Below are positions 45,336 to 63,602 of a DNA stretch of 64,000 nucleotides, one piece after another. The translations under genes were made by a program, and so were the position numbers. Position 1 is the first letter of the stretch. Every line of letters begins with the position of its first letter. The notes under the pieces were generated by a model. That model was not told where the DNA came from. It searched no databases and was given only the letters and a program-made list of their open reading frames with translations. Location: the NCBI GenBank assembly GCA_000002445.1, contig CP000068.1, positions 320,001-384,000 on the forward strand, read 5' to 3'. Source of the DNA: Trypanosoma brucei (taxonomy: Eukaryota).

Positions 45336-45367
45336 AACACACACACACACACACACGCACACACACA
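45336..45367. repeat. (CA)n microsatellite about 50 nt upstream of the giant gene ATG
   Basis: 'acacacacacacacacacgcacacacacaaaag'. Confidence 0.9.
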
Positions 45368-45413
45368 AAAGTGTATATTTATTTATATATTTAGGTCGCC
45401 ACGGTACAATTAA

Positions 45414-48400
45414 ATGCCGGGGTTGTTAAAGTGGAAGAAGCGTTGTAGTCCCGTCGCGATGCGCCCAAGTAGGGGTTTGGTACCGTCTCCACGGAAGTCG
45501 CCCTCAAAACAGCGTTCCAGTGCGCACAGCGCAGCCGCGGGCGAGGAATGTTATGAACTGCAGGCGGTTCCATCTGTCATTCCGGCACTCCAAGCGATTA
45601 GTGCCGTGCGCCGCGCGGGAGCTCTGATGGCTCGTGTAATGAGTCCAACAGCGGATCGAATAGAAGGAGAGTTGTGGTATATTGCAGGGGAATACGGGCC
45701 GGGAAAGGGAAATGCCGCTGCACCCCAGTGGGTGACGTGCGATAGGCATCGGTTGGTGGTTTGGAGTAGCTGGTGTGGACAGGGCCGTATAATAGACACC
45801 GTTTCTTTCGATCGTCTTAGACTTATTCTCAACTTCTCTCATGCGCATACGCATAAGGTGTGCCAACGGCAGGCACCCGTCACAAGATATTCGGCGGCGA
45901 AGAACTTCTCCCTCCCCTCAGCTCGCGGGAGCAGAAGCCCTCCACAAACGTTTAGAAGAGGAACAACCACCTTTGCTAGGAAAAAAAAGCTCGGTGCGAT
46001 CGCAACAGGCAGGATTCGCGCATATGGTGGTACGTCGATGCCCCGTTACTATTACTTTGGCGTGGAGTTTACTTGCCTTTACCGCACAGAGGACGGTAGA
46101 AATCACCGGCGGCGGCGGGTCATGATGTTTGCAACGGATGTTCAGCATGACCTCATCACGTGGCTGCAGTTCTTATCAGATGTAGAAGTTAAAAAGGTTC
46201 GAGAAACCGTATGTGGAGGGGGTTCTCAGGGAACGAAGCGCGCGCGGAAGTCTAAGCAGTGTATGAGTCCGAACGTTAGTTACTTTCTCAATGAAAGTGA
46301 TTGCACTGCCGTAGACACTAGTAATGAGACGTCATTGGCTTCGTCATCTCCACTAGACATTGACACCACGATGGATCCCGCGGTAGCGCCGTCGAGGGCG
46401 TCCGATCGTGAGGTTGAGGCGCCCGGCCAATCAATATTTTCCCTTTTTTCTAGCACGGTAACCGATCCCACAAAGAGTCCATCACCACAGCCCATAGAAA
46501 AGGAGCAATCCGAGGAAGTCATAAGTAACGGGTCGCTTCTCGACATATCCCTTCACAACAACGAGCCACCACAACTGGCAGCTAGGCCTCACACACCAAA
46601 AAAAAAGAAAGCATCACTAAAAAAAGTAAAGAAGAAAACATACGAGGAGCTTAGGAATGAGCGAATGATGAGGGAAAATACCGAGCTCAAAAGAAAGAAT
46701 GAAGAGTTAAAAAAGGAAATTAAAGTGGCAACAGATAAAATAACAGAACTGCAACGAAATCTTCAAGCATCAGAGAGAACGAATAGATACGCGGAAGAAG
46801 AATGCGAGCACCTCAGAGACAGTTTGCTTAAAGTAGAAAAACAAAAAGCCAACCTAGCAAAAAAACTAAGTGAATCAACAGGAAACGAATTTCAACTACA
46901 AAAGCAGGCTGTCGAACTTCACGCAACGTTAGAAGAACAGGCTGCTTGCATCCGTGCGCTGAGTGAGCAAATTACTGCCGCCGACGCCTACTTGCGAGAC
47001 GCGGAGGGCGAGTGTGGTTCACTGGCTGGGTTGCTTGGTCTCTCCCCAGCAGAAGATGGTGGCGACCTCGGGACTGGTAGTGCTGGTTTGTCATTGTCGA
47101 ATGGCGCGCTACGCATAGCGGAGAGACTGCGGTTGGCGTGCAGTGCGGTACACGACCTGGAGCAAGAACTGAAGGCCAGTGGGGAGCGTGAGCGTGCCTC
47201 TATAGAGGAATGTGATCGATTACGTAATGAACTACAGAAGCTGGAGTCGCAGCGTTCTGATCTGGAGGAGAGTCTGAATGCAGCCGAGGCGTTGGAGTGT
47301 GCGTTACGGCGCCAGCTACACGAGTCCCTAGAGGAGGTACGCAGTGCTGAGAATGCATTGAGTGCTGCGGAGCAGGCGTTGCGTTGCATACCGAGTGGGA
47401 TGGATCAGTACGCACGGGATGCCGATGGCGGTTCTGTTTCTAATGATGATAGCCGTGAACTGCCGACACTTGCGCTGCCAGCGCGCATTGAGGGCGTGAC
47501 CCGTCAGGCATGCGAATTCCGCGATGAGATGTACAAACGACACCAGGAGCTGTTGGACTTGGTTGCTAGAGGCGTGTGCAACGAGGATGCTCTTGCCCGT
47601 GTGCGTGAGCTGCGTTGTGCGAAGGAGGCTGTGGAGACGGAGCTGCAGGATACGCTAAGGGAAGCTGAGAAGCGGCTGTGTGTGGTGACCGCGTGTGAGG
47701 GTGTGCTTGGCGAGACTTTGTGCAGTGACGTTGTTGAGCAGCGCCAGGCAGAGCTGCTGTGCGCCCTGCGTGCAGACGTTGCAGAGGCCTGCGGTGTTTC
47801 GGGTAGTCATGTGATTGATGCTACGATAGCTGATGATGGTTCGAATGTGACTTTTCGTGTGGCTCACCCATACTGTGTCCCCGCAGCGGCTGTGCTGGCA
47901 AGGGTAGATTCATGCGCTTTCGACCGCGTACGGCGCGTCAACAAGTGGTCTTGTGGTGACTCTGAGGCGGTGTCCTTTGCCGAAGAAGATGAGGCGGAGC
48001 GTGAGTTTGTTGCAGTTGGGACCCCCGCTGGGGAGGCATTTTTGGCTCGGATAACCGAGTTGAGTGGGCGTTTCGCCTCTGTGAACGGTGAGCTGCGTGC
48101 AGCAGAGGACGCGCTTGCGGAGCGACCCGCTGTTGTGGTGTGTGGGTTGGAGCAGCGCGTTTCGGAGACTAATGCCACTGTGGAGGAACAGGCTGCTTGC
48201 ATCCGTGCGCTGAGTGAGCAAATTGCTGCCGCCGACGCCTACTTGCGAGACGCGGAGGGCGAGTGTGGTTCACTGGCTGGGTTGCTTGGTCTCTCCCCAG
48301 CAGAAGATGGTGGCGACCTCGGGACTGGTAGTGCTGGTTTGTCATTGTCGAATGGCGCGCTACGCATAGCGGAGAGACTGCGGTTGGCGTGCAGTGCGGT

Positions 48401-51400
48401 ACACGACCTGGAGCAAGAACTGAAGGCCAGTGGGGAGCGTGAGCGTGCCTCTATAGAGGAATGTGATCGATTACGTAATGAACTACAGAAGCTGGAGTCG
48501 CAGCGTTCTGATCTGGAGGAGAGTCTGAATGCAGCCGAGGCGTTGGAGTGTGCGTTACGGCGCCAGCTACACGAGTCCCTAGAGGAGGTACGCAGTGCTG
48601 AGAATGCATTGAGTGCTGCGGAGCAGGCGTTGCGTTGCATACCGAGTGGGATGGATCAGTACGCACGGGATGCCGATGGCGGTTCTGTTTCTAATGATGA
48701 TAGCCGTGAACTGCCGACACTTGCGCTGCCAGCGCGCATTGAGGGCGTGACCCGTCAGGCATGCGAATTCCGCGATGAGATGTACAAACGACACCAGGAG
48801 CTGTTGGACTTGGTTGCTAGAGGCGTGTGCAACGAGGATGCTCTTGCCCGTGTGCGTGAGCTGCGTTGTGCGAAGGAGGCTGTGGAGACGGAGCTGCAGG
48901 ATACGCTAAGGGAAGCTGAGAAGCGGCTGTGTGTGGTGACCGCGTGTGAGGGTGTGCTTGGCGAGACTTTGTGCAGTGACGTTGTTGAGCAGCGCCAGGC
49001 AGAGCTGCTGTGCGCCCTGCGTGCAGACGTTGCAGAGGCTTGCGGTGTTTCGGGTAGTCATGTGATTGATGCTACGATAGCTGATGATGGTTCGAATGTG
49101 ACTTTTCGTGTGGCTCACCCATACTGTGTCCCCGCAGCGGCTGTGCTGGCAAGGGTAGATTCATGCGCTTTCGACCGCGTACGGCGCGTCAACAAGTGGT
49201 CTTGTGGTGACTCTGAGGCGGTGTCCTTTGCCGAAGAAGATGAGGCGGAGCGTGAGTTTGTTGCAGTTGGGACCCCCGCTGGGGAGGCATTTTTGGCTCG
49301 GATAACCGAGTTGAGTGGGCGTTTCGCCTCTGTGAACGGTGAGCTGCGTGCAGCAGAGGACGCGCTTGCGGAGCGACCCGCTGTTGTGGTGTGTGGGTTG
49401 GAGCAGCGCGTTTCGGAGACTAATGCCACTGTGGAGGAACAGGCTGCTTGCATCCGTGCGCTGAGTGAGCAAATTGCTGCCGCCGACGCCTACTTGCGAG
49501 ATGCGGAGGGCGAGTGTGGTTCACTGGCTGGGTTGCTTGGTCTCTCCCCAGCAGAAGATGGTGGCGACCTCGGGACTGGTAGTGCTGGTTTGTCATTGTC
49601 GAATGGCGCGCTACGCATAGCGGAGAGACTGCGGTTGGCGTGCAGTGCGGTACACGACCTGGAGCAAGAACTGAAGGCCAGTGGGGAGCGTGAGCGTGCC
49701 TCTATAGAGGAATGTGATCGATTACGTAATGAACTACAGAAGCTGGAGTCGCAGCGTTCTGATCTGGAGGAGAGTCTGAATGCAGCCGAGGCGTTGGAGT
49801 GTGCGTTACGGCGCCAGCTACACGAGTCCCTAGAGGAGGTACGCAGTGCTGAGAATGCATTGAGTGCTGCGGAGCAGGCGTTGCGTTGCATACCGAGTGG
49901 GATGGATCAGTACGCACGGGATGCCGATGGCGGTTCTGTTTCTAATGATGATAGCCGTGAACTGCCGACACTTGCGCTGCCAGCGCGCATTGAGGGCGTG
50001 ACCCGTCAGGCATGCGAATTCCGCGATGAGATGTACAAACGACACCAGGAGCTGTTGGACTTGGTTGCTAGAGGCGTGTGCAACGAGGATGCTCTTGCCC
50101 GTGTGCGTGAGCTGCGTTGTGCGAAGGAGGCTGTGGAGACGGAGCTGCAGGATACGCTAAGGGAAGCTGAGAAGCGGCTGTGTGTGGTGACCGCGTGTGA
50201 GGGTGTGCTTGGCGAGACTTTGTGCAGTGACGTTGTTGAGCAGCGCCAGGCAGAGCTGCTGTGCGCCCTGCGTGCAGACGTTGCAGAGGCCTGCGGTGTT
50301 TCGGGTAGTCATGTGATTGATGCTACGATAGCTGATGATGGTTCGAATGTGACTTTTCGTGTGGCTCACCCATACTGTGTCCCCGCAGCGGCTGTGCTGG
50401 CAAGGGTAGATTCATGCGCTTTCGACCGCGTACGGCGCGTCAACAAGTGGTCTTGTGGTGACTCTGAGGCGGTGTCCTTTGCCGAAGAAGATGAGGCGGA
50501 GCGTGAGTTTGTTGCAGTTGGGACCCCCGCTGGGGAGGCATTTTTGGCTCGGATAACCGAGTTGAGTGGGCGTTTCGCCTCTGTGAACGGTGAGCTGCGT
50601 GCAGCAGAGGACGCGCTTGCGGAGCGACCCGCTGTTGTGGTGTGTGGGTTGGAGCAGCGCGTTTCGGAGACTAATGCCACTGTGGAGGAACAGGCTGCTT
50701 GCATCCGTGCGCTGAGTGAGCAAATTGCTGCCGCCGACGCCTACTTGCGAGATGCGGAGGGCGAGTGTGGTTCACTGGCTGGGTTGCTTGGTCTCTCCCC
50801 AGCAGAAGATGGTGGCGACCTCGGGACTGGTAGTGCTGGTTTGTCATTGTCGAATGGCGCGCTACGCATAGCGGAGAGACTGCGGTTGGCGTGCAGTGCG
50901 GTACACGACCTGGAGCAAGAACTGAAGGCCAGTGGGGAGCGTGAGCGTGCCTCTATAGAGGAATGTGATCGATTACGTAATGAACTACAGAAGCTGGAGT
51001 CGCAGCGTTCTGATCTGGAGGAGAGTCTGAATGCAGCCGAGGCGTTGGAGTGTGCGTTACGGCGCCAGCTACACGAGTCCCTAGAGGAGGTACGCAGTGC
51101 TGAGAATGCATTGAGTGCTGCGGAGCAGGCGTTGCGTTGCATACCGAGTGGGATGGATCAGTATGCACGGGATGCCGATGGCGGTTCTGTTTCTAATGAT
51201 GATAGCCGTGAACTGCCGACACTTGCGCTGCCAGCGCGCATTGAGGGCGTGACCCGTCAGGCATGCGAATTCCGCGATGAGATGTACAAACGACACCAGG
51301 AGCTGTTGGACTTGGTTGCTAGAGGCGTGTGCAACGAGGATGCTCTTGCCCGTGTGCGTGAGCTGCGTTGTGCGAAGGAGGCTGTGGAGACGGAGCTGCA

Positions 51401-54400
51401 GGATACGCTAAGGGAAGCTGAGAAGCGGCTGTGTGTGGTGACCGCGTGTGAGGGTGTGCTTGGCGAGACTTTGTGCAGTGACGTTGTTGAGCAGCGCCAG
51501 GCAGAGCTGCTGTGCGCCCTGCGTGCAGACGTTGCAGAGGCCTGCGGTGTTTCGGGTAGTCATGTGATTGATGCTACGATAGCTGATGATGGTTCGAATG
51601 TGACTTTTCGTGTGGCTCACCCATACTGTGTCCCCGCAGCGGCTGTGCTGGCAAGGGTAGATTCATGCGCTTTCGACCGCGTACGGCGCGTCAACAAGTG
51701 GTCTTGTGGTGACTCTGAGGCGGTGTCCTTTGCCGAAGAAGATGAGGCGGAGCGTGAGTTTGTTGCAGTTGGGACCCCCGCTGGGGAGGCATTTTTGGCT
51801 CGGATAACCGAGTTGAGTGGGCGTTTCGCCTCTGTGAACGGTGAGCTGCGTGCAGCAGAGGACGCGCTTGCGGAGCGACCCGCTGTTGTGGTGTGTGGGT
51901 TGGAGCAGCGCGTTTCGGAGACTAATGCCACTGTGGAGGAACAGGCTGCTTGCATCCGTGCGCTGAGTGAGCAAATTGCTGCCGCCGACGCCTACTTGCG
52001 AGATGCGGAGGGCGAGTGTGGTTCACTGGCTGGGTTGCTTGGTCTCTCCCCAGCAGAAGATGGTGGCGACCTCGGGACTGGTAGTGCTGGTTTGTCATTG
52101 TCGAATGGCGCGCTACGCATAGCGGAGAGACTGCGGTTGGCGTGCAGTGCGGTACACGACCTGGAGCAAGAACTGAAGGCCAGTGGGGAGCGTGAGCGTG
52201 CCTCTATAGAGGAATGTGATCGATTACGTAATGAACTACAGAAGCTGGAGTCGCAGCGTTCTGATCTGGAGGAGAGTCTGAATGCAGCCGAGGCGTTGGA
52301 GTGTGCGTTACGGCGCCAGCTACACGAGTCCCTAGAGGAGGTACGCAGTGCTGAGAATGCATTGAGTGCTGCGGAGCAGGCGTTGCGTTGCATACCGAGT
52401 GGGATGGATCAGTATGCACGGGATGCCGATGGCGGTTCTGTTTCTAATGATGATAGCCGTGAACTGCCGACACTTGCGCTGCCAGCGCGCATTGAGGGCG
52501 TGACCCGTCAGGCATGCGAATTCCGCGATGAGATGTACAAACGACACCAGGAGCTGTTGGACTTGGTTGCTAGAGGCGTGTGCAACGAGGATGCTCTTGC
52601 CCGTGTGCGTGAGCTGCGTTGTGCGAAGGAGGCTGTGGAGACGGAGCTGCAGGATACGCTAAGGGAAGCTGAGAAGCGGCTGTGTGTGGTGACCGCGTGT
52701 GAGGGTGTGCTTGGCGAGACTTTGTGCAGTGACGTTGTTGAGCAGCGCCAGGCAGAGCTGCTGTGCGCCCTGCGTGCAGACGTTGCAGAGGCCTGCGGTG
52801 TTTCGGGTAGTCATGTGATTGATGCTACGATAGCTGATGATGGTTCGAATGTGACTTTTCGTGTGGCTCACCCATACTGTGTCCCCGCAGCGGCTGTGCT
52901 GGCAAGGGTAGATTCATGCGCTTTCGACCGCGTACGGCGCGTCAACAAGTGGTCTTGTGGTGACTCTGAGGCGGTGTCCTTTGCCGAAGAAGATGAGGCG
53001 GAGCGTGAGTTTGTTGCAGTTGGGACCCCCGCTGGGGAGGCATTTTTGGCTCGGATAACCGAGTTGAGTGGGCGTTTCGCCTCTGTGAACGGTGAGCTGC
53101 GTGCAGCAGAGGACGCGCTTGCGGAGCGACCCGCTGTTGTGGTGTGTGGGTTGGAGCAGCGCGTTTCGGAGACTAATGCCACTGTGGAGGAACAGGCTGC
53201 TTGCATCCGTGCGCTGAGTGAGCAAATTGCTGCCGCCGACGCCTACTTGCGAGATGCGGAGGGCGAGTGTGGTTCACTGGCTGGGTTGCTTGGTCTCTCC
53301 CCAGCAGAAGATGGTGGCGACCTCGGGACTGGTAGTGCTGGTTTGTCATTGTCGAATGGCGCGCTACGCATAGCGGAGAGACTGCGGTTGGCGTGCAGTG
53401 CGGTACACGACCTGGAGCAAGAACTGAAGGCCAGTGGGGAGCGTGAGCGTGCCTCTATAGAGGAATGTGATCGATTACGTAATGAACTACAGAAGCTGGA
53501 GTCGCAGCGTTCTGATCTGGAGGAGAGTCTGAATGCAGCCGAGGCGTTGGAGTGTGCGTTACGGCGCCAGCTACACGAGTCCCTAGAGGAGGTACGCAGT
53601 GCTGAGAATGCATTGAGTGCTGCGGAGCAGGCGTTGCGTTGCATACCGAGTGGGATGGATCAGTACGCACGGGATGCCGATGGCGGTTCTGTTTCTAATG
53701 ATGATAGCCGTGAACTGCCGACACTTGCGCTGCCAGCGCGCATTGAGGGCGTGACCCGTCAGGCATGCGAATTCCGCGATGAGATGTACAAACGACACCA
53801 GGAGCTGTTGGACTTGGTTGCTAGAGGCGTGTGCAACGAGGATGCTCTTGCCCGTGTGCGTGAGCTGCGTTGTGCGAAGGAGGCTGTGGAGACGGAGCTG
53901 CAGGATACGCTAAGGGAAGCTGAGAAGCGGCTGTGTGTGGTGACCGCGTGTGAGGGTGTGCTTGGCGAGACTTTGTGCAGTGACGTTGTTGAGCAGCGCC
54001 AGGCAGAGCTGCTGTGCGCCCTGCGTGCAGACGTTGCAGAGGCCTGCGGTGTTTCGGGTAGTCATGTGATTGATGCTACGATAGCTGATGATGGTTCGAA
54101 TGTGACTTTTCGTGTGGCTCACCCATACTGTGTCCCCGCAGCGGCTGTGCTGGCAAGGGTAGATTCATGCGCTTTCGACCGCGTACGGCGCGTCAACAAG
54201 TGGTCTTGTGGTGACTCTGAGGCGGTGTCCTTTGCCGAAGAAGATGAGGCGGAGCGTGAGTTTGTTGCAGTTGGGACCCCCGCTGGGGAGGCATTTTTGG
54301 CTCGGATAACCGAGTTGAGTGGGCGTTTCGCCTCTGTGAACGGTGAGCTGCGTGCAGCAGAGGACGCGCTTGCGGAGCGACCCGCTGTTGTGGTGTGTGG

Positions 54401-57400: not shown

Positions 57401-60400
57401 GAGTGGGATGGATCAGTACGCACGGGATGCCGATGGCGGTTCTGTTTCTAATGATGATAGCCGTGAACTGCCGACACTTGCGCTGCCAGCGCGCATTGAG
57501 GGCGTGACCCGTCAGGCATGCGAATTCCGCGATGAGATGTACAAACGACACCAGGAGCTGTTGGACTTGGTTGCTAGAGGCGTGTGCAACGAGGATGCTC
57601 TTGCCCGTGTGCGTGAGCTGCGTTGTGCGAAGGAGGCTGTGGAGACGGAGCTGCAGGATACGCTAAGGGAAGCTGAGAAGCGGCTGTGTGTGGTGACCGC
57701 GTGTGAGGGTGTGCTTGGCGAGACTTTGTGCAGTGACGTTGTTGAGCAGCGCCAGGCAGAGCTGCTGTGCGCCCTGCGTGCAGACGTTGCAGAGGCCTGC
57801 GGTGTTTCGGGTAGTCATGTGATTGATGCTACGATAGCTGATGATGGTTCGAATGTGACTTTTCGTGTGGCTCACCCATACTGTGTCCCCGCAGCGGCTG
57901 TGCTGGCAAGGGTAGATTCATGCGCTTTCGACCGCGTACGGCGCGTCAACAAGTGGTCTTGTGGTGACTCTGAGGCGGTGTCCTTTGCCGAAGAAGATGA
58001 GGCGGAGCGTGAGTTTGTTGCAGTTGGGACCCCCGCTGGGGAGGCATTTTTGGCTCGGATAACCGAGTTGAGTGGGCGTTTCGCCTCTGTGAACGGTGAG
58101 CTGCGTGCAGCAGAGGACGCGCTTGCGGAGCGACCCGCTGTTGTGGTGTGTGGGTTGGAGCAGCGCGTTTCGGAGACTAATGCCACTGTGGAGGAACAGG
58201 CTGCTTGCATCCGTGCGCTGAGTGAGCAAATTGCTGCCGCCGACGCCTACTTGCGAGATGCGGAGGGCGAGTGTGGTTCACTGGCTGGGTTGCTTGGTCT
58301 CTCCCCAGCAGAAGATGGTGGCGACCTCGGGACTGGTAGTGCTGGTTTGTCATTGTCGAATGGCGCGCTACGCATAGCGGAGAGACTGCGGTTGGCGTGC
58401 AGTGCGGTACACGACCTGGAGCAAGAACTGAAGGCCAGTGGGGAGCGTGAGCGTGCCTCTATAGAGGAATGTGATCGATTACGTAATGAACTACAGAAGC
58501 TGGAGTCGCAGCGTTCTGATCTGGAGGAGAGTCTGAATGCAGCCGAGGCGTTGGAGTGTGCGTTACGGCGCCAGCTACACGAGTCCCTAGAGGAGGTACG
58601 CAGTGCTGAGAATGCATTGAGTGCTGCGGAGCAGGCGTTGCGTTGCATACCGAGTGGGATGGATCAGTACGCACGGGATGCCGATGGCGGTTCTGTTTCT
58701 AATGATGATAGCCGTGAACTGCCGACACTTGCGCTGCCAGCGCGCATTGAGGGCGTGACCCGTCAGGCATGCGAATTCCGCGGTGAGATGTACAAACGAC
58801 ACCAGGAGCTGTTGGACTTGGTTGCTAGAGGCGTGTGCAACGAGGATGCTCTTGCCCGTGTGCGTGAGCTGCGTTGTGCGAAGGAGGCTGTGGAGACGGA
58901 GCTGCAGGATACGCTAAGGGAAGCTGAGAAGCGGCTGTGTGTGGTGACCGCGTGTGAGGGTGTGCTTGGCGAGACTTTGTGCAGTGACGTTGTTGAGCAG
59001 CGCCAGGCAGAGCTGCTGTGCGCCCTGCGTGCAGACGTTGCAGAGGCCTGCGGTGTTTCGGGTAGTCATGTGATTGATGCTACGATAGCTGATGATGGTT
59101 CGAATGTGACTTTTCGTGTGGCTCACCCATACTGTGTCCCCGCAGCGGCTGTGCTGGCAAGGGTAGATTCATGCGCTTTCGACCGCGTACGGCGCGTCAA
59201 CAAGTGGTCTTGTGGTGACTCTGAGGCGGTGTCCTTTGCCGAAGAAGATGAGGCGGAGCGTGAGTTTGTTGCAGTTGGGACCCCCGCTGGGGAGGCATTT
59301 TTGGCTCGGATAACCGAGTTGAGTGGGCGTTTCGCCTCTGTGAACGGTGAGCTGCGTGCAGCAGAGGACGCGCTTGCGGAGCGACCCGCTGTTGTGGTGT
59401 GTGGGTTGGAGCAGCGCGTTTCGGAGACTAATGCCACTGTGGAGGAACAGGCTGCTTGCATCCGTGCGCTGAGTGAGCAAATTGCTGCCGCCGACGCCTA
59501 CTTGCGAGACGCGGAGGGCGAGTGTGGTTCACTGGCTGGGTTGCTTGGTCTCTCCCCAGCAGAAGATGGTGGCGACCTCGGGACTGGTAGTGCTGGTTTG
59601 TCATTGTCGAATGGCGCGCTACGCATAGCGGAGAGACTGCGGTTGGCGTGCAGTGCGGTACACGACCTGGAGCAAGAACTGAAGGCCAGTGGGGAGCGTG
59701 AGCGTGCCTCTATAGAGGAATGTGATCGATTACGTAATGAACTACAGAAGCTGGAGTCGCAGCGTTCTGATCTGGAGGAGAGTCTGAATGCAGCCGAGAT
59801 ACCGGAACAGATTTTGAGGGGTCATGTTGATTCTTTTTTGTGTCGTGTTTTTACGTCGTTGAAGTGTTTGCGTGATGTTGTTGCTGGTTTTGCTGTGTTT
59901 ATGTGTTCTGATGTTGATGTTGATGGGAGCCCGTTTCTTTCTTTTGGTCAGGAGGGAACATTGGAGAAGAATATTGATTTGTCGCTGTATCGTTTAGAAT
60001 TACTTGTTCCAACTATTGATGTTTTATGTCGTGGGCTTGTTGGGTTGTGTCGTTTTTATGAGGCTGATCGTTTGTCACTGATGAATGGATTGACTGGTCT
60101 TGGGGTAGAGCCGGGTGGTCTGGTATTGAATTCGGTTATTCCTTGCGCTGATGCTCGACGTTCTTTGAGTGGCACTCTTGTTGATATTGTTTCTGCTGCT
60201 GGCGATATATCCGTTGTAGGTGATTTCGGAGGTAATGATAACTCTGTTGCAGAAGGTGGAACTAAATCGTTGTTGCAGGCGGTCGGGGTTTGGCAGACTT
60301 CCGTTGAGGAGTTTTCTGCTGAGGAGCAGTGTTCTTATTCAAAAGTTGTTGCGGGTATTGTTGGAGGTTTTCGAGATGAGGGGATAGCTGCCCGTCGCGC

Positions 60401-63400
60401 CCTGGTTAATGTGCGTAAGGCGCTTGAAGGTAAGGTGCCCTGTAGGGATGATGTTATCGATGGTAATGTTGTTGCCTCTCAAGGAAGTGATTTGGAGACC
60501 AGTGAAGGAAGGGAGGTTGTACGCCTGATTGCAGAGCAGAGGAAGTCGGTTTTATTTGCTTTGACCTCTTTGTTGTCATCCGTGTCGGCCGACGGAGTTG
60601 AAAGGGCTATGAGATTAAGTAAGAATGTTCCCTTCAGTGATTTAGTGTTGTTGTTGCGCCACGAGTGCGTAAACGTTTCCAAAGCGTTTATGTCACTTAA
60701 TGCAATTGTCCAGGAGGGTAGCAACATTGCAATTGTTACCTCTGGGGAAAGTGGTGAGAGTAGCCAGCCGGGGTCGTCAGTGACCGGGTTTACTGAGGTG
60801 AAAGGTGATAACGTGGTGCCATCGAAGACGTCTGCCGCCATTGAAAACGTCTCGTCACCAGACCTCGCCCCTTCACAGTCAGCCGGGGGAGAGGGCGGAA
60901 AACTTCACACGGGAAAGGGACCCGCTTCCGCATCTGATTCTGCTATGGATTCTACCGTTGCTTCCGCCGGGATATGTGCGGTTGATGGGATGCCGTCGCA
61001 CTCAACCTCACTGTCTCGGTGCCCTAGTGTCGCTGCTGAAGACACGGATGAGAGGGCCGACTTGCTGTTTTCCCTTAGAGACTTCGTTGAGGCCGAAGAA
61101 GCTTCTGGGAAGCCGCTCGCAATCGTTCAACAGGTGCGTGAGCACATTCATGCCCGTACCGAGGAGCTTCAGCAGCTTCGTACTGCTGCAGTAAAGAGTG
61201 TGGAGACGCTCAGTGGTGATCCACTTCCAGCCGGTGCTAAGCCTTATGATGTAGCCGGCGCACTACTAGCAGCTGTGAAGACAACGAGCGACTCTATTGG
61301 TGGCGTCCACGCATTGCTGTCCGGTGTCACTTTGGAGGAAGCTCCAGCCCAAGCGACACGTTCACTTAAACCGAAGGCGAAACCTCAACCGGTAGGTCGT
61401 TGCAACTCCTCGATAGTGCTTTCGCTAAAGCGTGCCGTCTTGCTGAATCCTCGCCTTGCGCAGGCCGGTGGGAGGAGGTCCCGTGAAAGCGTGCAAATGG
61501 GGTTAAGCACGGCTTCTCGCTCTGCTGGAAACCGCAGTTCGGTGTCGGGAAATTCAAGTTCAGGAGGGGGAGGCGCATCCGTCGGCCCGCAGAAGCTACA
61601 TGAACTCATCAAAGCTATCGAGAGCAAGCTAAAGATTGTCCAACATACAAGGGACACATGCAGTGTTTGTCTGTATCTTTTGGGCGACAAAGAGGGAGGG
61701 AACGTCCCTGCTGAGGAACTGCCGACTCGCCTCTTGCTGCAAGCACAGGACTTATTCTCCGGACTGACGCAAATACAGAACTTGGATTTAGGTGACGAAG
61801 ACGATGAGCCCAACGCCGATGACAAGTCAAGCGAGGGGAATTCTTTGGTTGGCAAGCCGTCTTGGATAACCTCAAGGCTGCTGAAAGTTGCTAAGGTCTT
61901 TAGGTCGCTTCAGTATATCAACGAGTCTATGAAACAAAGGGAGGCTGTCGCTGAAAAGCAGAGAAGCTTCTTGCTACTGGATGTAAATGAATTACGGAAC
62001 ACCCATGCGGAAGAAAAGCGGCGGCTTCAAGATATGCTGGAGGGTGCGAAGGTGCAGCTGCGGGAGCGCGACCTTAATATCAAAGACATGCAGCAGCAGA
62101 ATGCTATTTTGCGGGCGGATTACGACAAAGCCTGCGCGGAAAGTAAGCATATGACTCTAGAGTTGAATGATATGCGCGGAACGCTGGATGATCTTCAGCA
62201 TTGGTTGGAGGGCGTAGAAATGGCCGCTGGGGTTGTGCGCAGGTCATCAGCTGCTGTCTGGGGACAGATTTGTAGCGTTGAGCAGAAGTTGACAGAAAGA
62301 TTATCCGCATTTATTCCTACAGATCACGGGCGCTATAGGCGAACGAGTAAAACTAACGTAGAAGAGAAAATGGAGGTGTCGCTAACCGCAAGAGAAACCG
62401 GGGGGGAAGTGGAGTTGGTACCTGTTTCGGGTGGAAAGCTAGTGGTACAGCTGGTTGAGGATAGCGCTAGCTGCTTGAGACAATGTGAGGAGTCTCTTCA
62501 ACTGTTGGAGCGTCCTCTTATTCTCGTGCCTGCCTTGAGTGAATGGATAAAGCAACAATACTTGTCTCTAAAAGACAATGTATCACACGCTGAGGAGGAG
62601 GTTCGCTCAATCCTGCGCAGTTGCTACCGGAGTGCGGCCGATCTGCTATATGATAAACTCCGTGCCGTGCAGCGTCACAGGGAGGCGGAGCTTGAACTTG
62701 ATGCGTCCCATGCACGCTGGCAAGGGCGGTTGCGGGATATTGAGGCAGCTCACAAGGAACACACTGCTGTACTGAACCGCCGGCTGGCAACAATGTGGGA
62801 CTTGACTACTCAACAAGATGTGCTGCGCGCCGAGACGGCCAGATGGCAGGCCTGTGCGGAGGCGGCGGCAGAGGAAACGGAGCGCTTGCGAGTGTTGCTT
62901 CGTGCCGCTGAGTCCAGAGAGGTGCCCCAGCCTACTGAGGTTGTTAAAATAATAGAAGTTGAGCCACCTAGAGCACCAAAGCCATCTACAAGGGAGGTTT
63001 CTATTATGACAGATTTACTCATTGTTGAGGAGCCTGCTGTACCCGATTACGATGAGGCAACTGATGTGTTGAAGATACGGGCAGAGCTTTCAGATGCTTT
63101 GGAATATGCCAAGCATCAGGCGGATGACGCTGCGCGCTGTCGCTCTTTGATGCAGGAGCAACTCCACTTGTTGGATGGTGGTCAGGGGGCGGTTGTGGAT
63201 CCGTCACTTTCGCTGGGAAAGTTGATTGAAACACATAAGAAGCGCCTCCTGATGCACGTGGATGAGCGTAGGAAACTTCTTGAAGCTTGGCAGACTGCGC
63301 AGCACAACATTTCCCGGCTAAAACAGGAAATCGATGAAAGGGAGCGACAACGCAAGAAGGAAACACGAGAACTGGAGACACAAATTAAGGAACTACGGGT

Positions 63401-63602
63401 GAGAGTGCAGCGAAAGCTCGAAATGGATATGATCACGGAGCGGCAAATTGCGGAAGCAGAGCGATCGATTGACCGGGAGTTCGAGGAGTTGTGCCGCCGA
63501 GCCTTAAGCGGCCTGTCTGTAGCTGCGCATTTGCAACAGTTGCGCAGTTCTCTGATGGCGCGGATACGCATGCAAATGGAGGCACAGCGCCCCAGACACT
63601 GA
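45414..63602 (+). CDS. Giant repetitive coiled-coil protein (about 6062 aa) containing about 10.3 tandem 417-aa repeats
   Basis: A single uninterrupted 18.2-kb ORF. A unique basic, coiled-coil N-terminal region runs to 46914 ('KKKKASLKKVKKKTYEELRNERMMRENTELKRKNEELKKEIK'). The near-identical repeat array occupies 46915-59797. A unique about 1270-aa C-terminal region runs from 59798 to 63602, ending in heptad-rich coiled coil ('...QEIDERERQRKKETRELETQIKELRVRVQRKLEMDM...'). The start codon is uncertain because several in-frame Met lie downstream. Confidence 0.8.
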   Translation: MPGLLKWKKRCSPVAMRPSRGLVPSPRKSPSKQRSSAHSAAAGEECYELQAVPSVIPALQAISAVRRAGALMARVMSPTADRIEGELWYIAGEYGPGKGNAAAPQWVTCDRHRLVVWSSWCGQGRIIDTVSFDRLRLILNFSHAHTHKVCQRQAPVTRYSAAKNFSLPSARGSRSPPQTFRRGTTTFARKKKLGAIATGRIRAYGGTSMPRYYYFGVEFTCLYRTEDGRNHRRRRVMMFATDVQHDLITWLQFLSDVEVKKVRETVCGGGSQGTKRARKSKQCMSPNVSYFLNESDCTAVDTSNETSLASSSPLDIDTTMDPAVAPSRASDREVEAPGQSIFSLFSSTVTDPTKSPSPQPIEKEQSEEVISNGSLLDISLHNNEPPQLAARPHTPKKKKASLKKVKKKTYEELRNERMMRENTELKRKNEELKKEIKVATDKITELQRNLQASERTNRYAEEECEHLRDSLLKVEKQKANLAKKLSESTGNEFQLQKQAVELHATLEEQAACIRALSEQITAADAYLRDAEGECGSLAGLLGLSPAEDGGDLGTGSAGLSLSNGALRIAERLRLACSAVHDLEQELKASGERERASIEECDRLRNELQKLESQRSDLEESLNAAEALECALRRQLHESLEEVRSAENALSAAEQALRCIPSGMDQYARDADGGSVSNDDSRELPTLALPARIEGVTRQACEFRDEMYKRHQELLDLVARGVCNEDALARVRELRCAKEAVETELQDTLREAEKRLCVVTACEGVLGETLCSDVVEQRQAELLCALRADVAEACGVSGSHVIDATIADDGSNVTFRVAHPYCVPAAAVLARVDSCAFDRVRRVNKWSCGDSEAVSFAEEDEAEREFVAVGTPAGEAFLARITELSGRFASVNGELRAAEDALAERPAVVVCGLEQRVSETNATVEEQAACIRALSEQIAAADAYLRDAEGECGSLAGLLGLSPAEDGGDLGTGSAGLSLSNGALRIAERLRLACSAVHDLEQELKASGERERASIEECDRLRNELQKLESQRSDLEESLNAAEALECALRRQLHESLEEVRSAENALSAAEQALRCIPSGMDQYARDADGGSVSNDDSRELPTLALPARIEGVTRQACEFRDEMYKRHQELLDLVARGVCNEDALARVRELRCAKEAVETELQDTLREAEKRLCVVTACEGVLGETLCSDVVEQRQAELLCALRADVAEACGVSGSHVIDATIADDGSNVTFRVAHPYCVPAAAVLARVDSCAFDRVRRVNKWSCGDSEAVSFAEEDEAEREFVAVGTPAGEAFLARITELSGRFASVNGELRAAEDALAERPAVVVCGLEQRVSETNATVEEQAACIRALSEQIAAADAYLRDAEGECGSLAGLLGLSPAEDGGDLGTGSAGLSLSNGALRIAERLRLACSAVHDLEQELKASGERERASIEECDRLRNELQKLESQRSDLEESLNAAEALECALRRQLHESLEEVRSAENALSAAEQALRCIPSGMDQYARDADGGSVSNDDSRELPTLALPARIEGVTRQACEFRDEMYKRHQELLDLVARGVCNEDALARVRELRCAKEAVETELQDTLREAEKRLCVVTACEGVLGETLCSDVVEQRQAELLCALRADVAEACGVSGSHVIDATIADDGSNVTFRVAHPYCVPAAAVLARVDSCAFDRVRRVNKWSCGDSEAVSFAEEDEAEREFVAVGTPAGEAFLARITELSGRFASVNGELRAAEDALAERPAVVVCGLEQRVSETNATVEEQAACIRALSEQIAAADAYLRDAEGECGSLAGLLGLSPAEDGGDLGTGSAGLSLSNGALRIAERLRLACSAVHDLEQELKASGERERASIEECDRLRNELQKLESQRSDLEESLNAAEALECALRRQLHESLEEVRSAENALSAAEQALRCIPSGMDQYARDADGGSVSNDDSRELPTLALPARIEGVTRQACEFRDEMYKRHQELLDLVARGVCNEDALARVRELRCAKEAVETELQDTLREAEKRLCVVTACEGVLGETLCSDVVEQRQAELLCALRADVAEACGVSGSHVIDATIADDGSNVTFRVAHPYCVPAAAVLARVDSCAFDRVRRVNKWSCGDSEAVSFAEEDEAEREFVAVGTPAGEAFLARITELSGRFASVNGELRAAEDALAERPAVVVCGLEQRVSETNATVEEQAACIRALSEQIAAADAYLRDAEGECGSLAGLLGLSPAEDGGDLGTGSAGLSLSNGALRIAERLRLACSAVHDLEQELKASGERERASIEECDRLRNELQKLESQRSDLEESLNAAEALECALRRQLHESLEEVRSAENALSAAEQALRCIPSGMDQYARDADGGSVSNDDSRELPTLALPARIEGVTRQACEFRDEMYKRHQELLDLVARGVCNEDALARVRELRCAKEAVETELQDTLREAEKRLCVVTACEGVLGETLCSDVVEQRQAELLCALRADVAEACGVSGSHVIDATIADDGSNVTFRVAHPYCVPAAAVLARVDSCAFDRVRRVNKWSCGDSEAVSFAEEDEAEREFVAVGTPAGEAFLARITELSGRFASVNGELRAAEDALAERPAVVVCGLEQRVSETNATVEEQAACIRALSEQIAAADAYLRDAEGECGSLAGLLGLSPAEDGGDLGTGSAGLSLSNGALRIAERLRLACSAVHDLEQELKASGERERASIEECDRLRNELQKLESQRSDLEESLNAAEALECALRRQLHESLEEVRSAENALSAAEQALRCIPSGMDQYARDADGGSVSNDDSRELPTLALPARIEGVTRQACEFRDEMYKRHQELLDLVARGVCNEDALARVRELRCAKEAVETELQDTLREAEKRLCVVTACEGVLGETLCSDVVEQRQAELLCALRADVAEACGVSGSHVIDATIADDGSNVTFRVAHPYCVPAAAVLARVDSCAFDRVRRVNKWSCGDSEAVSFAEEDEAEREFVAVGTPAGEAFLARITELSGRFASVNGELRAAEDALAERPAVVVCGLEQRVSETNATVEEQAACIRALSEQIAAADAYLRDAEGECGSLAGLLGLSPAEDGGDLGTGSAGLSLSNGALRIAERLRLACSAVHDLEQELKASGERERASIEECDRLRNELQKLESQRSDLEESLNAAEALECALRRQLHESLEEVRSAENALSAAEQALRCIPSGMDQYARDADGGSVSNDDSRELPTLALPARIEGVTRQACEFRDEMYKRHQELLDLVARGVCNEDALARVRELRCAKEAVETELQDTLREAEKRLCVVTACEGVLGETLCSDVVEQRQAELLCALRADVAEACGVSGSHVIDATIADDGSNVTFRVAHPYCVPAAAVLARVDSCAFDRVRRVNKWSCGDSEAVSFAEEDEAEREFVAVGTPAGEAFLARITELSGRFASVNGELRAAEDALAERPAVVVCGLEQRVSETNATVEEQAACIRALSEQIAAADAYLRDAEGECGSLAGLLGLSPAEDGGDLGTGSGGLSLSNGALRIAERLRLACSAVHDLEQELKASGERERASIEECDRLRNELQKLESQRSDLEESLNAAEALECALRRQLHESLEEVRSAENALSAAEQALRCIPSGMDQYARDADGGSVSNDDSRELPTLALPARIEGVTRQACEFRDEMYKRHQELLDLVARGVCNEDALARVRELRCAKEAVETELQDTLREAEKRLCVVTACEGVLGETLCSDVVEQRQAELLCALRADVAEACGVSGSHVIDATIADDGSNVTFRVAHPYCVPAAAVLARVDSCAFDRVRRVNKWSCGDSEAVSFAEEDEAEREFVAVGTPAGEAFLARITELSGRFASVNGELRAAEDALAERPAVVVCGLEQRVSETNATVEEQAACIRALSEQIAAADAYLRDAEGECGSLAGLLGLSPAEDGGDLGTGSAGLSLSNGALRIAERLRLACSAVHDLEQELKASGERERASIEECDRLRNELQKLESQRSDLEESLNAAEALECALRRQLHESLEEVRSAENALSAAEQALRCIPSGMDQYARDADGGSVSNDDSRELPTLALPARIEGVTRQACEFRDEMYKRHQELLDLVARGVCNEDALARVRELRCAKEAVETELQDTLREAEKRLCVVTACEGVLGETLCSDVVEQRQAELLCALRADVAEACGVSGSHVIDATIADDGSNVTFRVAHPYCVPAAAVLARVDSCAFDRVRRVNKWSCGDSEAVSFAEEDEAEREFVAVGTPAGEAFLARITELSGRFASVNGELRAAEDALAERPAVVVCGLEQRVSETNATVEEQAACIRALSEQIAAADAYLRDAEGECGSLAGLLGLSPAEDGGDLGTGSAGLSLSNGALRIAERLRLACSAVHDLEQELKASGERERASIEECDRLRNELQKLESQRSDLEESLNAAEALECALRRQLHESLEEVRSAENALSAAEQALRCIPSGMDQYARDADGGSVSNDDSRELPTLALPARIEGVTRQACEFRGEMYKRHQELLDLVARGVCNEDALARVRELRCAKEAVETELQDTLREAEKRLCVVTACEGVLGETLCSDVVEQRQAELLCALRADVAEACGVSGSHVIDATIADDGSNVTFRVAHPYCVPAAAVLARVDSCAFDRVRRVNKWSCGDSEAVSFAEEDEAEREFVAVGTPAGEAFLARITELSGRFASVNGELRAAEDALAERPAVVVCGLEQRVSETNATVEEQAACIRALSEQIAAADAYLRDAEGECGSLAGLLGLSPAEDGGDLGTGSAGLSLSNGALRIAERLRLACSAVHDLEQELKASGERERASIEECDRLRNELQKLESQRSDLEESLNAAEIPEQILRGHVDSFLCRVFTSLKCLRDVVAGFAVFMCSDVDVDGSPFLSFGQEGTLEKNIDLSLYRLELLVPTIDVLCRGLVGLCRFYEADRLSLMNGLTGLGVEPGGLVLNSVIPCADARRSLSGTLVDIVSAAGDISVVGDFGGNDNSVAEGGTKSLLQAVGVWQTSVEEFSAEEQCSYSKVVAGIVGGFRDEGIAARRALVNVRKALEGKVPCRDDVIDGNVVASQGSDLETSEGREVVRLIAEQRKSVLFALTSLLSSVSADGVERAMRLSKNVPFSDLVLLLRHECVNVSKAFMSLNAIVQEGSNIAIVTSGESGESSQPGSSVTGFTEVKGDNVVPSKTSAAIENVSSPDLAPSQSAGGEGGKLHTGKGPASASDSAMDSTVASAGICAVDGMPSHSTSLSRCPSVAAEDTDERADLLFSLRDFVEAEEASGKPLAIVQQVREHIHARTEELQQLRTAAVKSVETLSGDPLPAGAKPYDVAGALLAAVKTTSDSIGGVHALLSGVTLEEAPAQATRSLKPKAKPQPVGRCNSSIVLSLKRAVLLNPRLAQAGGRRSRESVQMGLSTASRSAGNRSSVSGNSSSGGGGASVGPQKLHELIKAIESKLKIVQHTRDTCSVCLYLLGDKEGGNVPAEELPTRLLLQAQDLFSGLTQIQNLDLGDEDDEPNADDKSSEGNSLVGKPSWITSRLLKVAKVFRSLQYINESMKQREAVAEKQRSFLLLDVNELRNTHAEEKRRLQDMLEGAKVQLRERDLNIKDMQQQNAILRADYDKACAESKHMTLELNDMRGTLDDLQHWLEGVEMAAGVVRRSSAAVWGQICSVEQKLTERLSAFIPTDHGRYRRTSKTNVEEKMEVSLTARETGGEVELVPVSGGKLVVQLVEDSASCLRQCEESLQLLERPLILVPALSEWIKQQYLSLKDNVSHAEEEVRSILRSCYRSAADLLYDKLRAVQRHREAELELDASHARWQGRLRDIEAAHKEHTAVLNRRLATMWDLTTQQDVLRAETARWQACAEAAAEETERLRVLLRAAESREVPQPTEVVKIIEVEPPRAPKPSTREVSIMTDLLIVEEPAVPDYDEATDVLKIRAELSDALEYAKHQADDAARCRSLMQEQLHLLDGGQGAVVDPSLSLGKLIETHKKRLLMHVDERRKLLEAWQTAQHNISRLKQEIDERERQRKKETRELETQIKELRVRVQRKLEMDMITERQIAEAERSIDREFEELCRRALSGLSVAAHLQQLRSSLMARIRMQMEAQRPRH
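46915..59797 (+). repeat. Tandem array of a 1251-bp (417-codon) unit, 10 full copies plus a 0.3 partial copy, >99% identical, in-frame within the giant CDS
   Basis: 'gaggaacaggctgcttgcatccgtgcgctgagtgagcaaatt' recurs at 46932, 48183, 49434 and every 1251 nt thereafter. Antisense ORFs (133, 112, 103, 71, 70 aa) recur with the same period (e.g. 46988, 48239, 49490 ... 58247). Identity decays upstream of about 46915. The array ends abruptly at 59797, where '...ctgaatgcagccgag' is followed by unique 'ataccggaacag'. Confidence 0.97.

What the first reader, a model, noticed from the sequence alone, without database searches (positions are those of the whole stretch)
45414..63602. 18-kb single-exon gene encoding a giant protein with about 10 near-perfect 417-aa tandem repeats
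One ORF occupies 28% of the window. Its core is a 1251-bp unit repeated at least 10.3 times. Only a handful of differences occur across about 12.9 kb, far more homogeneous than paralogous domains that drift independently. The repeat is coiled-coil-prone and acidic ('LEQELKASGERERASIEECDRLRNELQKLESQRSDLEESLNAAEALECALRRQLHESLEEVRSAENALSAAEQAL'), with Cys-rich stretches interspersed ('CEFRDEMYK', 'CVVTACEGVLGETLCSD'). It is flanked by unique N- and C-terminal domains that are also coiled-coil rich. This architecture resembles the giant cytoskeletal repeat proteins of trypanosomatids, such as flagellum-attachment-zone or microtubule-associated repetitive proteins, but I do not recognise this particular repeat. 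Such arrays are commonly collapsed in assemblies, so the true copy number may be larger.
Basis: seen in the sequence. Interest (0 to 1): 0.75.

Follow-up and report, generated by a model that had tools for sequence, protein, structure and literature searches.

The report
Known giant trypanosome flagellum-base repeat protein
The 18-kb gene is real, but it is already annotated as Trypanosoma brucei Tb927.5.1120: a 656-kDa protein that genome-wide tagging places near the flagellar basal body, made of an N-terminal PH-like domain, ten near-identical 417-residue modules and a conserved tail.

Summary
There is one ORF at 45414-63602 (+), 6,062 aa. It holds 10.28 in-frame copies of a 1,251-bp unit (46935-59798). 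The ten full copies differ from their consensus at only 11 nucleotides.

The gene is not new. The ORF is residue-for-residue identical to XP_844786.1 / UniProt Q57W57 of T. brucei brucei TREU927. The published TrypTag tagging primers for Tb927.5.1120 match exactly at both ORF ends.

Published screens give four results:
- An N-terminal tag localises to the "basal body region".
- The protein is detected by mass spectrometry.
- RNAi causes a fitness loss in procyclic forms.
- TriTrypDB carries a GO term "ciliary transition zone".

This analysis adds four points:
- Each unit contains a Pfam FAZ1_cons domain.
- Orthologues occur throughout trypanosomatids. They share the PH domain and tail but have lineage-specific repeats (about 47 to 426 aa).
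- The array evolves in concert, and copy number differs between assemblies (10.3, 6.3, 2.3).

The best reading is an elongated scaffold or spacer at the flagellum base. That mechanism is inferred, not shown. Interest is low to moderate.

The parts
45414..63602 (+). Complete ORF of Tb927.5.1120 (old ID Tb05.28F8.60; XP_844786.1 / Q57W57). 6,062 aa, 655.9 kDa, pI 4.79.
   Evidence: ORF list. Identical over 6,062/6,062 aa to P0020 = XP_844786.1. Mass and pI.
45334..45413 (+). 80-nt homology arm of the TrypTag N-terminal tagging primer for Tb927.5.1120. It ends immediately 5' of the ATG.
   Evidence: Primer sequence from TrypTag Table S3 (PMC9981465). Exact single match in the window.
45657..46214 (+). 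Split PH-like domain (aa ~82-267): seven beta-strands capped by a C-terminal helix. This is the most widely conserved part of the protein.
45903..46019 (+). Basic, low-confidence insert (aa ~164-202) between strands of the PH-like domain. Its length varies between species.
   Evidence: pLDDT below 50 at model residues 94-132. The same columns are gapped and variable in A1.
46707..46934 (+). Degenerate relic of part of a repeat unit (aa 432-507 resemble unit aa 61-133), directly upstream of the array.
   Evidence: BLASTP of the unit against the N-terminal flank: 32% identity over 76 aa, E = 5e-9.
46935..59444 (+). Ten full, in-frame 1,251-bp (417-aa) tandem copies. They differ from their consensus at 11 nt in total.
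47676..47939 (+). FAZ1_cons-type domain of copy 1 (unit aa ~248-335; the Pfam match itself covers aa 264-334). It recurs every 1,251 bp through copy 10, where it lies at 58935-59198.
   Evidence: Pfam PF23398: 45 bits per unit against a cutoff of 27.5. Ten stretches totalling 374 bits. Alignment with canonical T. congolense FAZ1_cons domains.
48141..48254 (+). Unit-junction segment that matches Pfam Phage_fiber_2. It recurs at each junction and is the source of the database name 'Phage tail fibre repeat, putative'.
   Evidence: 44.4 bits, E = 1.3e-11, profile positions 3-42 of 42. Ten stretches in the protein. No match at the orthologous T. congolense junction.
59445..59798 (+). Partial eleventh copy (first 354 bp, 118 aa, of the unit). 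T. b. gambiense and T. b. equiperdum have the same end point.
59799..63599 (+). Unique C-terminal region (aa 4796-6062, 138.6 kDa). It is conserved across Trypanosoma and ends in a coiled-coil-like segment.
   Evidence: About 25% identity over roughly 800-1,000 aligned positions to T. cruzi and T. melophagium, and 39% to T. congolense. No Pfam or PDB sequence match.
63518..63599 (+). Homology arm of the TrypTag C-terminal tagging primer for Tb927.5.1120. It covers the last codons before the stop.
   Evidence: Primer from TrypTag Table S3. Exact single match.

Best explanation
This is the annotated T. brucei gene Tb927.5.1120. It encodes an expressed, trypanosomatid-restricted 656-kDa structural protein of the flagellum base (basal-body / transition-zone region).

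Architecture:
- a split PH-like domain near the N-terminus;
- a disordered linker and a short coiled coil;
- ten essentially identical 417-aa modules, each about 250 aa of long helices, then a ~90-aa FAZ1_cons alpha/beta domain, then another helix;
- a conserved ~1,270-aa, mostly helical tail.

Proposed mechanism (inferred): the PH-like domain and the conserved tail are the two attachment ends. The repeat array is an elongated spacer and multivalent scaffold. Its length and its number of identical FAZ1_cons docking sites both scale with copy number.

The near-identity of the copies comes from concerted evolution (unequal exchange or gene conversion within the array), not from recent origin or assembly error. 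This same process makes copy number variable between strains.

Shown here or in the cited data: gene identity, architecture, PH fold, FAZ1_cons membership, expression, N-terminal localisation, concerted evolution. Inferred: the scaffold/spacer role and which partners bind.
For: Identity: the ORF equals XP_844786.1 over all 6,062 aa. TrypTag primers for Tb927.5.1120 match exactly at both ORF ends. The upstream neighbour is RPL2 = Tb927.5.1110.

Expression and location: the N-terminal mNeonGreen tag gives 'basal body[region]' and is not classed as faint. Mass spectrometry found 7 unique peptides, detected in 3 of 3 replicates. The RIT-seq-derived 'Essential' column reads PCF, and the gene is listed under GO:0035869 ciliary transition zone.

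Architecture: FAZ1_cons occurs 10 times. The PH fold is supported. The unit model is mostly helical, including a 95-residue helix at pLDDT 70-90.

Evidence that the ends carry the specific function and the middle acts as a spacer: the PH-like domain is conserved in all trypanosomatid orthologues found, and the tail is conserved across Trypanosoma. The repeat differs by lineage: 417-426 aa with FAZ1_cons in T. brucei and T. congolense, with matching fragments in T. vivax; 106 aa x 23 in T. melophagium; 86 aa x ~2 in T. cruzi; about 47-aa units seen by eye in Porcisia and Leishmania.

Concerted evolution: unit residue 83 is G in all ten TREU927 copies and R in every gambiense and equiperdum copy. 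TREU927's minor variants at unit nt 66, 149 and 855 are the states fixed in equiperdum. The two T. congolense copies differ at 1 aa but are only 53% identical to the T. brucei unit.

Other FAZ1_cons / PFAMB506 proteins are cytoskeletal: FAZ1, 4, 6, 8, 10, GB4, PFC20 and FLAM8 (PMC4406125 and PMC4827413).
Against: No dedicated functional study of this gene was found. Localisation rests on one high-throughput tag. The C-terminal tag was at background level ('cytoplasm[reticulated,weak]', classed as faint), so the position of the other end is unknown. The transition-zone GO term could not be traced to its source because Dean et al. 2016 is not held. The FAZ1_cons region of the unit model has low confidence (pLDDT 30-47), and no binding partner is known. 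The PH-like domain shows no obvious canonical phosphoinositide-binding motif and no Pfam PH hit, so its ligand is unknown. The very free evolution of the repeat could also mean that it is only loosely constrained filler.
Confidence: 0.6

Rival explanations
1. It is a component of the flagellum attachment zone filament, like FAZ1 or FAZ10.
For: Each unit carries the FAZ1_cons domain. Five of the published PFAMB506-domain proteins are FAZ components. The FAZ begins close to the basal body.
Against: TrypTag annotates 'basal body[region]', not 'flagellum attachment zone', which is a separate term in its ontology. The gene is absent from the FAZ protein tables of PMC4406125 and PMC4827413. The same domain also occurs in non-FAZ proteins such as GB4, FLAM8 and PFC20.
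Confidence: 0.1
2. It is a p197-like molecular ruler of the tripartite attachment complex, or another basal-body linker. One end would sit at the basal body and the other on a neighbouring organelle, with the repeat number setting the distance.
For: The design matches: unique ends flanking near-identical helical repeats. The N-terminus is in the basal-body region. The weak 'reticulated' C-terminal signal could in principle be mitochondrial.
Against: The C-terminal signal was classed as faint and fainter than the parental line, so it is not evidence. TrypTag has a specific 'tripartite attachment complex' term that was not used. The available GO term points to the transition zone instead. The comparison with p197 rests on my own recollection of that literature and was not tested here.
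Confidence: 0.12
3. The array as printed is partly an assembly product: the gene is real, but the count of 10.28 copies and the extreme homogeneity are unreliable.
For: 12.9 kb of 99.9%-identical 1.25-kb units exceeds what Sanger BAC reads can order. The assemblies disagree: 10.28 copies in TREU927, 6.28 in T. b. equiperdum and 2.28 in T. b. gambiense. The T. equiperdum OVI contig ends before the gene.
Against: An independent chromosome-scale assembly shows the same unit, the same array boundaries and six full copies. TREU927's rare variants sit at the very sites that differ between subspecies, so they are real polymorphisms rather than noise. The open frame is kept over 18 kb. The two frame breaks in the equiperdum assembly are single-base homopolymer deletions. 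None of this fixes the true TREU927 number.
Confidence: 0.3
4. The repeat is related to phage tail-fibre repeats, as the database product name 'Phage tail fibre repeat, putative' implies.
For: Pfam Phage_fiber_2 matches each unit junction at 44.4 bits, E = 1.3e-11, over nearly the whole 42-residue profile. This is above the cutoff of 22.
Against: The orthologous junction in T. congolense gives no match, although the units are 53% identical. The matched segment is an Ala/Ser/Glu-rich helical stretch. No other phage-like feature is present. All 18 homologues found in an exhaustive search are trypanosomatid. Chance convergence of a short, compositionally biased helical motif is the most likely explanation.
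Confidence: 0.03

Closest known systems
Tb927.5.1120 itself (XP_844786.1 / UniProt Q57W57; TriTrypDB product 'Phage tail fibre repeat, putative'; UniRef name 'Flagellar attachment zone protein 1 conserved domain-containing protein')
   Same: Identical sequence over 6,062/6,062 aa. The TrypTag primers match both ORF ends.
   Different: Nothing differs: this is the same gene. The public annotation does not describe the PH-like domain or the repeat anatomy, and I found no dedicated study of the gene.
GB4 (T. brucei posterior-end microtubule-capping protein; 37 x 600-nt repeats)
   Same: A giant ORF dominated by near-identical tandem repeats. It is listed among the PFAMB506 / FAZ1-type domain proteins and is cytoskeleton-associated.
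   Different: It has a different unit (200 aa against 417 aa), lies on chromosome 11, has no unique C-terminal region, and localises to the posterior cell tip.
FAZ1 / FAZ10 and the other FAZ1_cons (PF23398, formerly Pfam-B 506) proteins
   Same: They share the FAZ1_cons domain, and are large, coiled-coil-rich, repetitive and kinetoplastid-specific.
   Different: Those proteins localise along the FAZ, whereas this one is at the basal-body region. Here the domain is embedded once in every repeat unit, and the protein has an N-terminal PH-like domain. It is not among the nine proteins listed in 2015.
p197 of the tripartite attachment complex (comparison from my own knowledge of the literature; not tested here)
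   Same: Near-identical helical repeats between unique termini. It is located next to the basal body and has been proposed to act as a spacer.
   Different: The repeat unit is different, no sequence similarity was detected, and no evidence links Tb927.5.1120 to the TAC.
Orthologues in other trypanosomatids (T. congolense CCD14548.1, T. melophagium XP_067190935.1, T. cruzi PBJ69828.1, L. tarentolae GET92651.1 'PH domain-containing protein', Porcisia hertigi XP_067753341.1)
   Same: The N-terminal PH-like domain is 28-55% identical. The C-terminal region is shared within Trypanosoma. All have a central tandem-repeat region containing a DAEGEC..L..LLG-like core motif.
   Different: Unit length and copy number are lineage-specific. 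A Pfam-detectable FAZ1_cons domain inside the unit occurs only in T. brucei and T. congolense, with matching T. vivax fragments detected by my own profile. T. cruzi and L. tarentolae have none by Pfam. Leishmaniinae give only a weak single match upstream of their repeats.

Membership tests
FAZ1_cons domain proteins (Pfam PF23398) | Match to the PF23398 profile above the curated gathering score | tested here: met
   45.0 bits per unit against a cutoff of 27.5. Ten stretches totalling 374 bits in aa 1-4999. The T. congolense orthologue also matches.
FAZ1_cons domain proteins (Pfam PF23398) | Full-length domain, alignable from the first strand (VVT motif) to the C-terminal helix | tested here: met
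   The Pfam match covers profile positions 16-88 of 93. Alignment with four canonical T. congolense domains extends it to the N-terminal CVVT motif, with 8 invariant columns. The AlphaFold confidence for this region is low.
FAZ1_cons domain proteins (Pfam PF23398) | Listed among the nine PFAMB506 proteins of T. brucei (Sunter et al. 2015) | tested here: not met
   The named members are FAZ1, FAZ4, FAZ6, FAZ8, FAZ10, GB4, PFC20, FLAM8 and Tb927.10.870. No chromosome 5 gene is among them. PB000506 and PF23398 may not have identical boundaries.
Flagellum attachment zone (FAZ) components | Localisation along the FAZ | tested here: not met
   TrypTag N-terminal tag: 'basal body[region]'. The C-terminal tag was at background level. 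This is literature data, not my own experiment.
PH-domain-like superfamily | Seven-stranded beta-sandwich capped by a C-terminal helix | tested here: met
PH-domain-like superfamily | Sequence-profile match to a Pfam PH family | tested here: not met
   No PH family is reported at E <= 0.1 for aa 1-507. UniProt does name the L. tarentolae orthologue 'PH domain-containing protein'.
PH-domain-like superfamily | Phosphoinositide binding (basic beta1-beta2 motif) | not tested
   No canonical K-Xn-K/R-X-R motif is obvious in 'IEGELWYIAGEYGPGK...QWVTCDRHRL', but no binding prediction or assay was run.
Phage tail fibre repeat (Pfam PF03406) | Match above the gathering score | tested here: met
   44.4 bits against a cutoff of 22 at one unit junction. 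Ten stretches in the protein.
Phage tail fibre repeat (Pfam PF03406) | Conservation of the match in orthologues, as true homology would require | tested here: not met
   No match in the T. congolense junction or in its whole orthologue. All homologues are trypanosomatid.
Ciliary transition-zone proteome of T. brucei | Experimental localisation to, or purification with, the transition zone | not testable with these tools
   The gene is listed under GO:0035869 in a TriTrypDB-derived table. The presumed source, Dean et al. 2016 (PMC5024643), is not held. It is not in the supplements of the transition-fibre or basalin papers.
p197-type repeat-number rulers | Termini at two separate structures, with the distance scaling with repeat number | not testable with these tools
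   Only the N-terminal position is known. Copy number differs between assemblies, but no structural measurement exists.

The most novel reading that the evidence does not exclude
The repeat array may act as a length-setting spacer at the flagellum base, with its copy number truly polymorphic between T. brucei strains (10, 6, possibly fewer). In that case strains would differ in a physical dimension, or in the number of FAZ1_cons docking sites. The African (salivarian) trypanosomes would have created this multivalent scaffold by capturing a FAZ1_cons domain into the repeating unit. Stercorarian trypanosomes and Leishmania repeat only a short helical motif.
Probability: 0.2. Interest if true: 0.5.

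Novelty: already known. Interest (0 to 1): 0.22.

Why it matters
The gene does not reveal a new kind of system. It is a reference-genome gene that has already been tagged, detected and screened.

It still has some value as an under-studied component of the trypanosome flagellum base, with an RNAi fitness phenotype in procyclic forms. Three points from this analysis could help a specialist:
- The product name 'Phage tail fibre repeat' is misleading.
- The conserved N-terminal module is a split PH-like domain.
- The central repeats have been rebuilt independently in different lineages, while the ends are conserved.

The locus is also a clean small example of concerted evolution caught incomplete. 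The rare variants in TREU927 are the alleles fixed in a sister subspecies.

Tried and rejected
1. Word-indexed homologue searches with the unit and with the C-terminal region found nothing, although the identical protein is in that collection. The likely cause is that the 8,000-candidate list filled with coiled-coil decoys. The exhaustive HMMER scan solved this.

2. GB4 was considered as the identity of the gene and rejected. It has 600-nt repeats, lies on chromosome 11 and has no unique 3' end.

3. PDB sequence searches with the unit, the C-terminal region and a FAZ1_cons profile gave nothing usable. The arginine kinase, DsbD and WD40 rows are weak or have no independently significant stretch.

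4. The single-sequence AlphaFold model of the unit was too poor in the FAZ1_cons region (pLDDT 30-47) for a fold search.

5. Literature searches for Tb927.5.1120, protein accessions, guessed 427 and gambiense IDs, and 'TZP6xx' names found no main-text mention.

6. Dean et al. 2016 could not be read. The supplements of the transition-fibre, basalin and RNAi cell-cycle papers do not list the gene.

7. I searched for a FAZ1_cons domain in non-salivarian orthologues with my own profile. There were only weak single matches in L. tarentolae (E = 1.7e-5 in a tiny database) and Porcisia (E = 0.09), and none in T. cruzi or T. melophagium. This is suggestive only.

8. Frame breaks in the equiperdum assembly were considered as evidence for a pseudogene and rejected. 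They are single-base homopolymer deletions.
Full report
**1. The observation**

The window holds one long ORF at 45414-63602 on the + strand, encoding 6,062 aa with a single terminal stop. Self-comparison of the ORF peaks sharply at a shift of 1,251 bp, with 0.768 identity against about 0.30 for unrelated shifts.

The repeat runs from 46935 to 59798. That is 12,864 bp or 10.28 copies, in frame with the ORF: ten full copies and a 354-bp partial copy. The ten full copies differ from their consensus at 11 nucleotides in total, spread over 6 sites. These give three amino-acid changes.

The array stands out in composition, at about 58.5% GC with GC skew +0.25, against about 47% GC elsewhere. The unit is acidic (pI 4.56), has 18 cysteines in 417 residues, and is mostly helical in an AlphaFold model.

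**2. What the gene is**

Every Pfam-supported ORF in the window lies on the + strand: AAA ATPase, 2OG-Fe(II) oxygenase, thioredoxin, M16 peptidase, OTU, RRM, threonyl-tRNA synthetase, TPR and ribosomal protein L2. This is the layout of a trypanosomatid polycistronic unit.

The M16 peptidase is identical to a protein in an NCBI Trypanozoon assembly, and 21.5 kb of that contig is 99.5% identical to the window.

An exhaustive HMMER scan of 1.84 billion representatives with residues 1-1200 returned only 18 proteins. All 15 that carry a source name are trypanosomatid. The cluster of the best hit contains a 6,062-aa protein, XP_844786.1 / AAZ11227.1 / UniProt Q57W57, from T. brucei brucei TREU927. 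It is identical to the window ORF at every residue.

The gene identifier was confirmed from sequence. TrypTag Table S3 prints the tagging primers for Tb927.5.1120 (old ID Tb05.28F8.60). Their 80-82-nt homology arms match the window exactly at 45334-45413, ending at the ATG, and at 63518-63599, the last codons. Consistent with this, the upstream neighbour is ribosomal protein L2, published as Tb927.5.1110.

**3. What is already known about it**

- **Localisation.** The N-terminally tagged protein gives 'basal body[region]' and is not classed as faint. The C-terminal tag gives 'cytoplasm[reticulated,weak]', which is fainter than the parental line and classed as faint, so it is uninformative.
- **Proteomics.** In the procyclic cell-cycle proteome the protein, there named 'Phage tail fibre repeat, putative', was detected with 7 unique peptides in all three replicates. 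Its abundance did not change through the cell cycle.
- **Transcript.** It had earlier been classed as peaking in S phase.
- **RNAi.** The column derived from the Alsford et al. RNAi screen reads 'PCF', meaning a fitness loss in procyclic forms.
- **GO term.** The gene appears under GO:0035869, ciliary transition zone, in a TriTrypDB-derived table. I could not read the probable source of that term, Dean et al. 2016.

No paper in the searchable library mentions the gene ID or its accessions in the main text.

**4. Anatomy**

- **Linker and relic.** A Ser/Pro/Lys-rich stretch follows. Residues 432-507 are a decayed copy of unit residues 61-133.
- **Repeat unit.** In the model each 417-aa unit has helices at 2-33, 56-150, 152-165, 181-214 and 217-261. 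A region at ~248-335 matches Pfam FAZ1_cons (PF23398) at 45 bits against a cutoff of 27.5. A further helix lies at 364-395. The protein has ten such domains.
- **C-terminal region.** The last 1,267 residues match no Pfam family or PDB sequence. They are about 25% identical over roughly 800-1,000 aligned positions to the T. cruzi and T. melophagium orthologues, and 39% identical to T. congolense.

**5. Evolution of the repeat**

- **Salivarian trypanosomes.** T. congolense has a 426-aa unit. Its two assembled copies differ at a single residue, yet the unit is only 53% identical to that of T. brucei. It also carries FAZ1_cons. T. vivax has matching fragments.
- **Other lineages.** T. melophagium repeats a 106-aa unit 23 times, and this unit aligns with the start of the T. 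brucei unit. T. cruzi has about two 86-aa units. Porcisia and Leishmania have tandem units of about 47 aa, seen by eye in the sequences. The ends are therefore conserved while the middle has been rebuilt lineage by lineage.
- **Within T. brucei.** Unit residue 83 is Gly in all ten TREU927 copies and Arg in every T. b. gambiense and T. b. equiperdum copy. At the DNA level all six equiperdum copies carry T66C, C149G, G247A and C855T. TREU927's own minor variants at positions 66, 149 and 855 are those same states. This is the signature of concerted evolution still in progress, and it shows that the few differences are real polymorphisms.

**6. Copy number**

A chromosome-scale T. b. equiperdum assembly has the same array boundaries but 6.28 copies. 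The gene is split there into three models by two single-base deletions in homopolymer runs, which are most simply sequencing errors. T. b. gambiense DAL972 has 2.28 copies. The T. equiperdum OVI contig stops short of the gene. The array is real, but the TREU927 figure of ten full copies cannot be verified from these data.

**7. Mechanism**

The supported facts are:
- a very large, expressed protein;
- its N-terminus near the basal body;
- a conserved PH-like module at one end and a conserved helical region at the other;
- between them, ten identical modules of long helices plus a small domain otherwise found in trypanosome cytoskeletal proteins (FAZ1, FAZ4, FAZ6, FAZ8, FAZ10, GB4, PFC20, FLAM8).

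I infer that it is an elongated scaffold or spacer at the flagellum base. The two ends would anchor it, and the array would supply both length and ten identical docking sites. This inference is untested, and I give it about 0.6.

The rivals are a FAZ filament component, a p197-like basal-body linker, an assembly-inflated array, and true relationship to phage tail fibres. They are weighed in the rival-explanations section of this report.

**8. The 'phage tail fibre' name**

Read across the unit junction, the sequence matches Pfam Phage_fiber_2 at 44.4 bits (E = 1.3e-11) over almost the whole 42-residue profile, ten times in the protein. The orthologous T. congolense junction does not match, and nothing else about the protein is phage-like. 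I regard this as convergence of a short Ala/Ser/Glu-rich helical motif, and the product name as misleading.

**9. Verdict**

Interest is low to moderate.

The residual value lies in three points: the corrected domain description, the lineage-specific rebuilding of the repeats, and the open question of whether repeat number sets a dimension at the flagellum base.

Noticed in passing
window 48141-48254, recurring at each unit junction: The unit junction matches Pfam Phage_fiber_2 strongly (44.4 bits, E = 1.3e-11). This explains the public product name 'Phage tail fibre repeat, putative'. The orthologous T. congolense junction gives no match.
   Followed up: partly
window 46707-46934: The last 76 residues before the array are a degenerate copy of unit residues 61-133 (32% identity, E = 5e-9). 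The array is therefore flanked by an old, decayed partial unit.
   Followed up: partly
window 28106-28292 and 28445-28631: Two ~99-100% identical 187-bp direct repeats, 339 bp apart, lie inside the OTU-domain ORF (26244-28991). They appeared as secondary BLAST hits of locus L001 against the window.
   Followed up: no
window 45328-45367 and 45381-45398: A (CA)20 microsatellite and then a T-rich tract ending in AG lie within about 90 nt upstream of the ATG. The AG about 18 nt before the ATG could be the trans-splice acceptor. The T. b. gambiense annotation starts the protein at Met16 instead.
   Followed up: no
L002 9537-10786 and 12038-13287 (T. b. equiperdum CM010676.1): Two repeat copies are 1,250 bp long because of single-base deletions in CCCC and GGG runs. 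These deletions split the orthologue into three annotated 'genes' of 1,401, 739 and 2,064 aa.
   Followed up: yes
window 10599-14546: A 1,315-aa ORF on the + strand has no Pfam match at E <= 0.001. It is also called as a gene in the T. equiperdum contig.
   Followed up: no
window 40549-40619 and other intergenic sites (10140, 21064, 22314, 22607, 32438, 41359): Long (AT)n/(TA)n microsatellites, up to 35.5 units, lie between genes throughout the window.
   Followed up: no
P0018 (T. congolense CCD11564.1, 772 aa): This is a different protein with four canonical FAZ1_cons domains (334 bits). It was recovered only through the domain, and it gives a clean reference for the domain's full extent (VVT.H...W...D.D....LGLP.G.V......DG..V.F.V.HP).
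   Followed up: partly
L. tarentolae P0011 residues 1445-1517; Porcisia P0008 residues 1366-1437: A single weak FAZ1_cons-like segment lies upstream of the short repeats in Leishmaniinae orthologues (E = 1.7e-5 and 0.09 in a very small database). It hints that the domain may be ancestral to the protein rather than a salivarian acquisition.
   Followed up: partly
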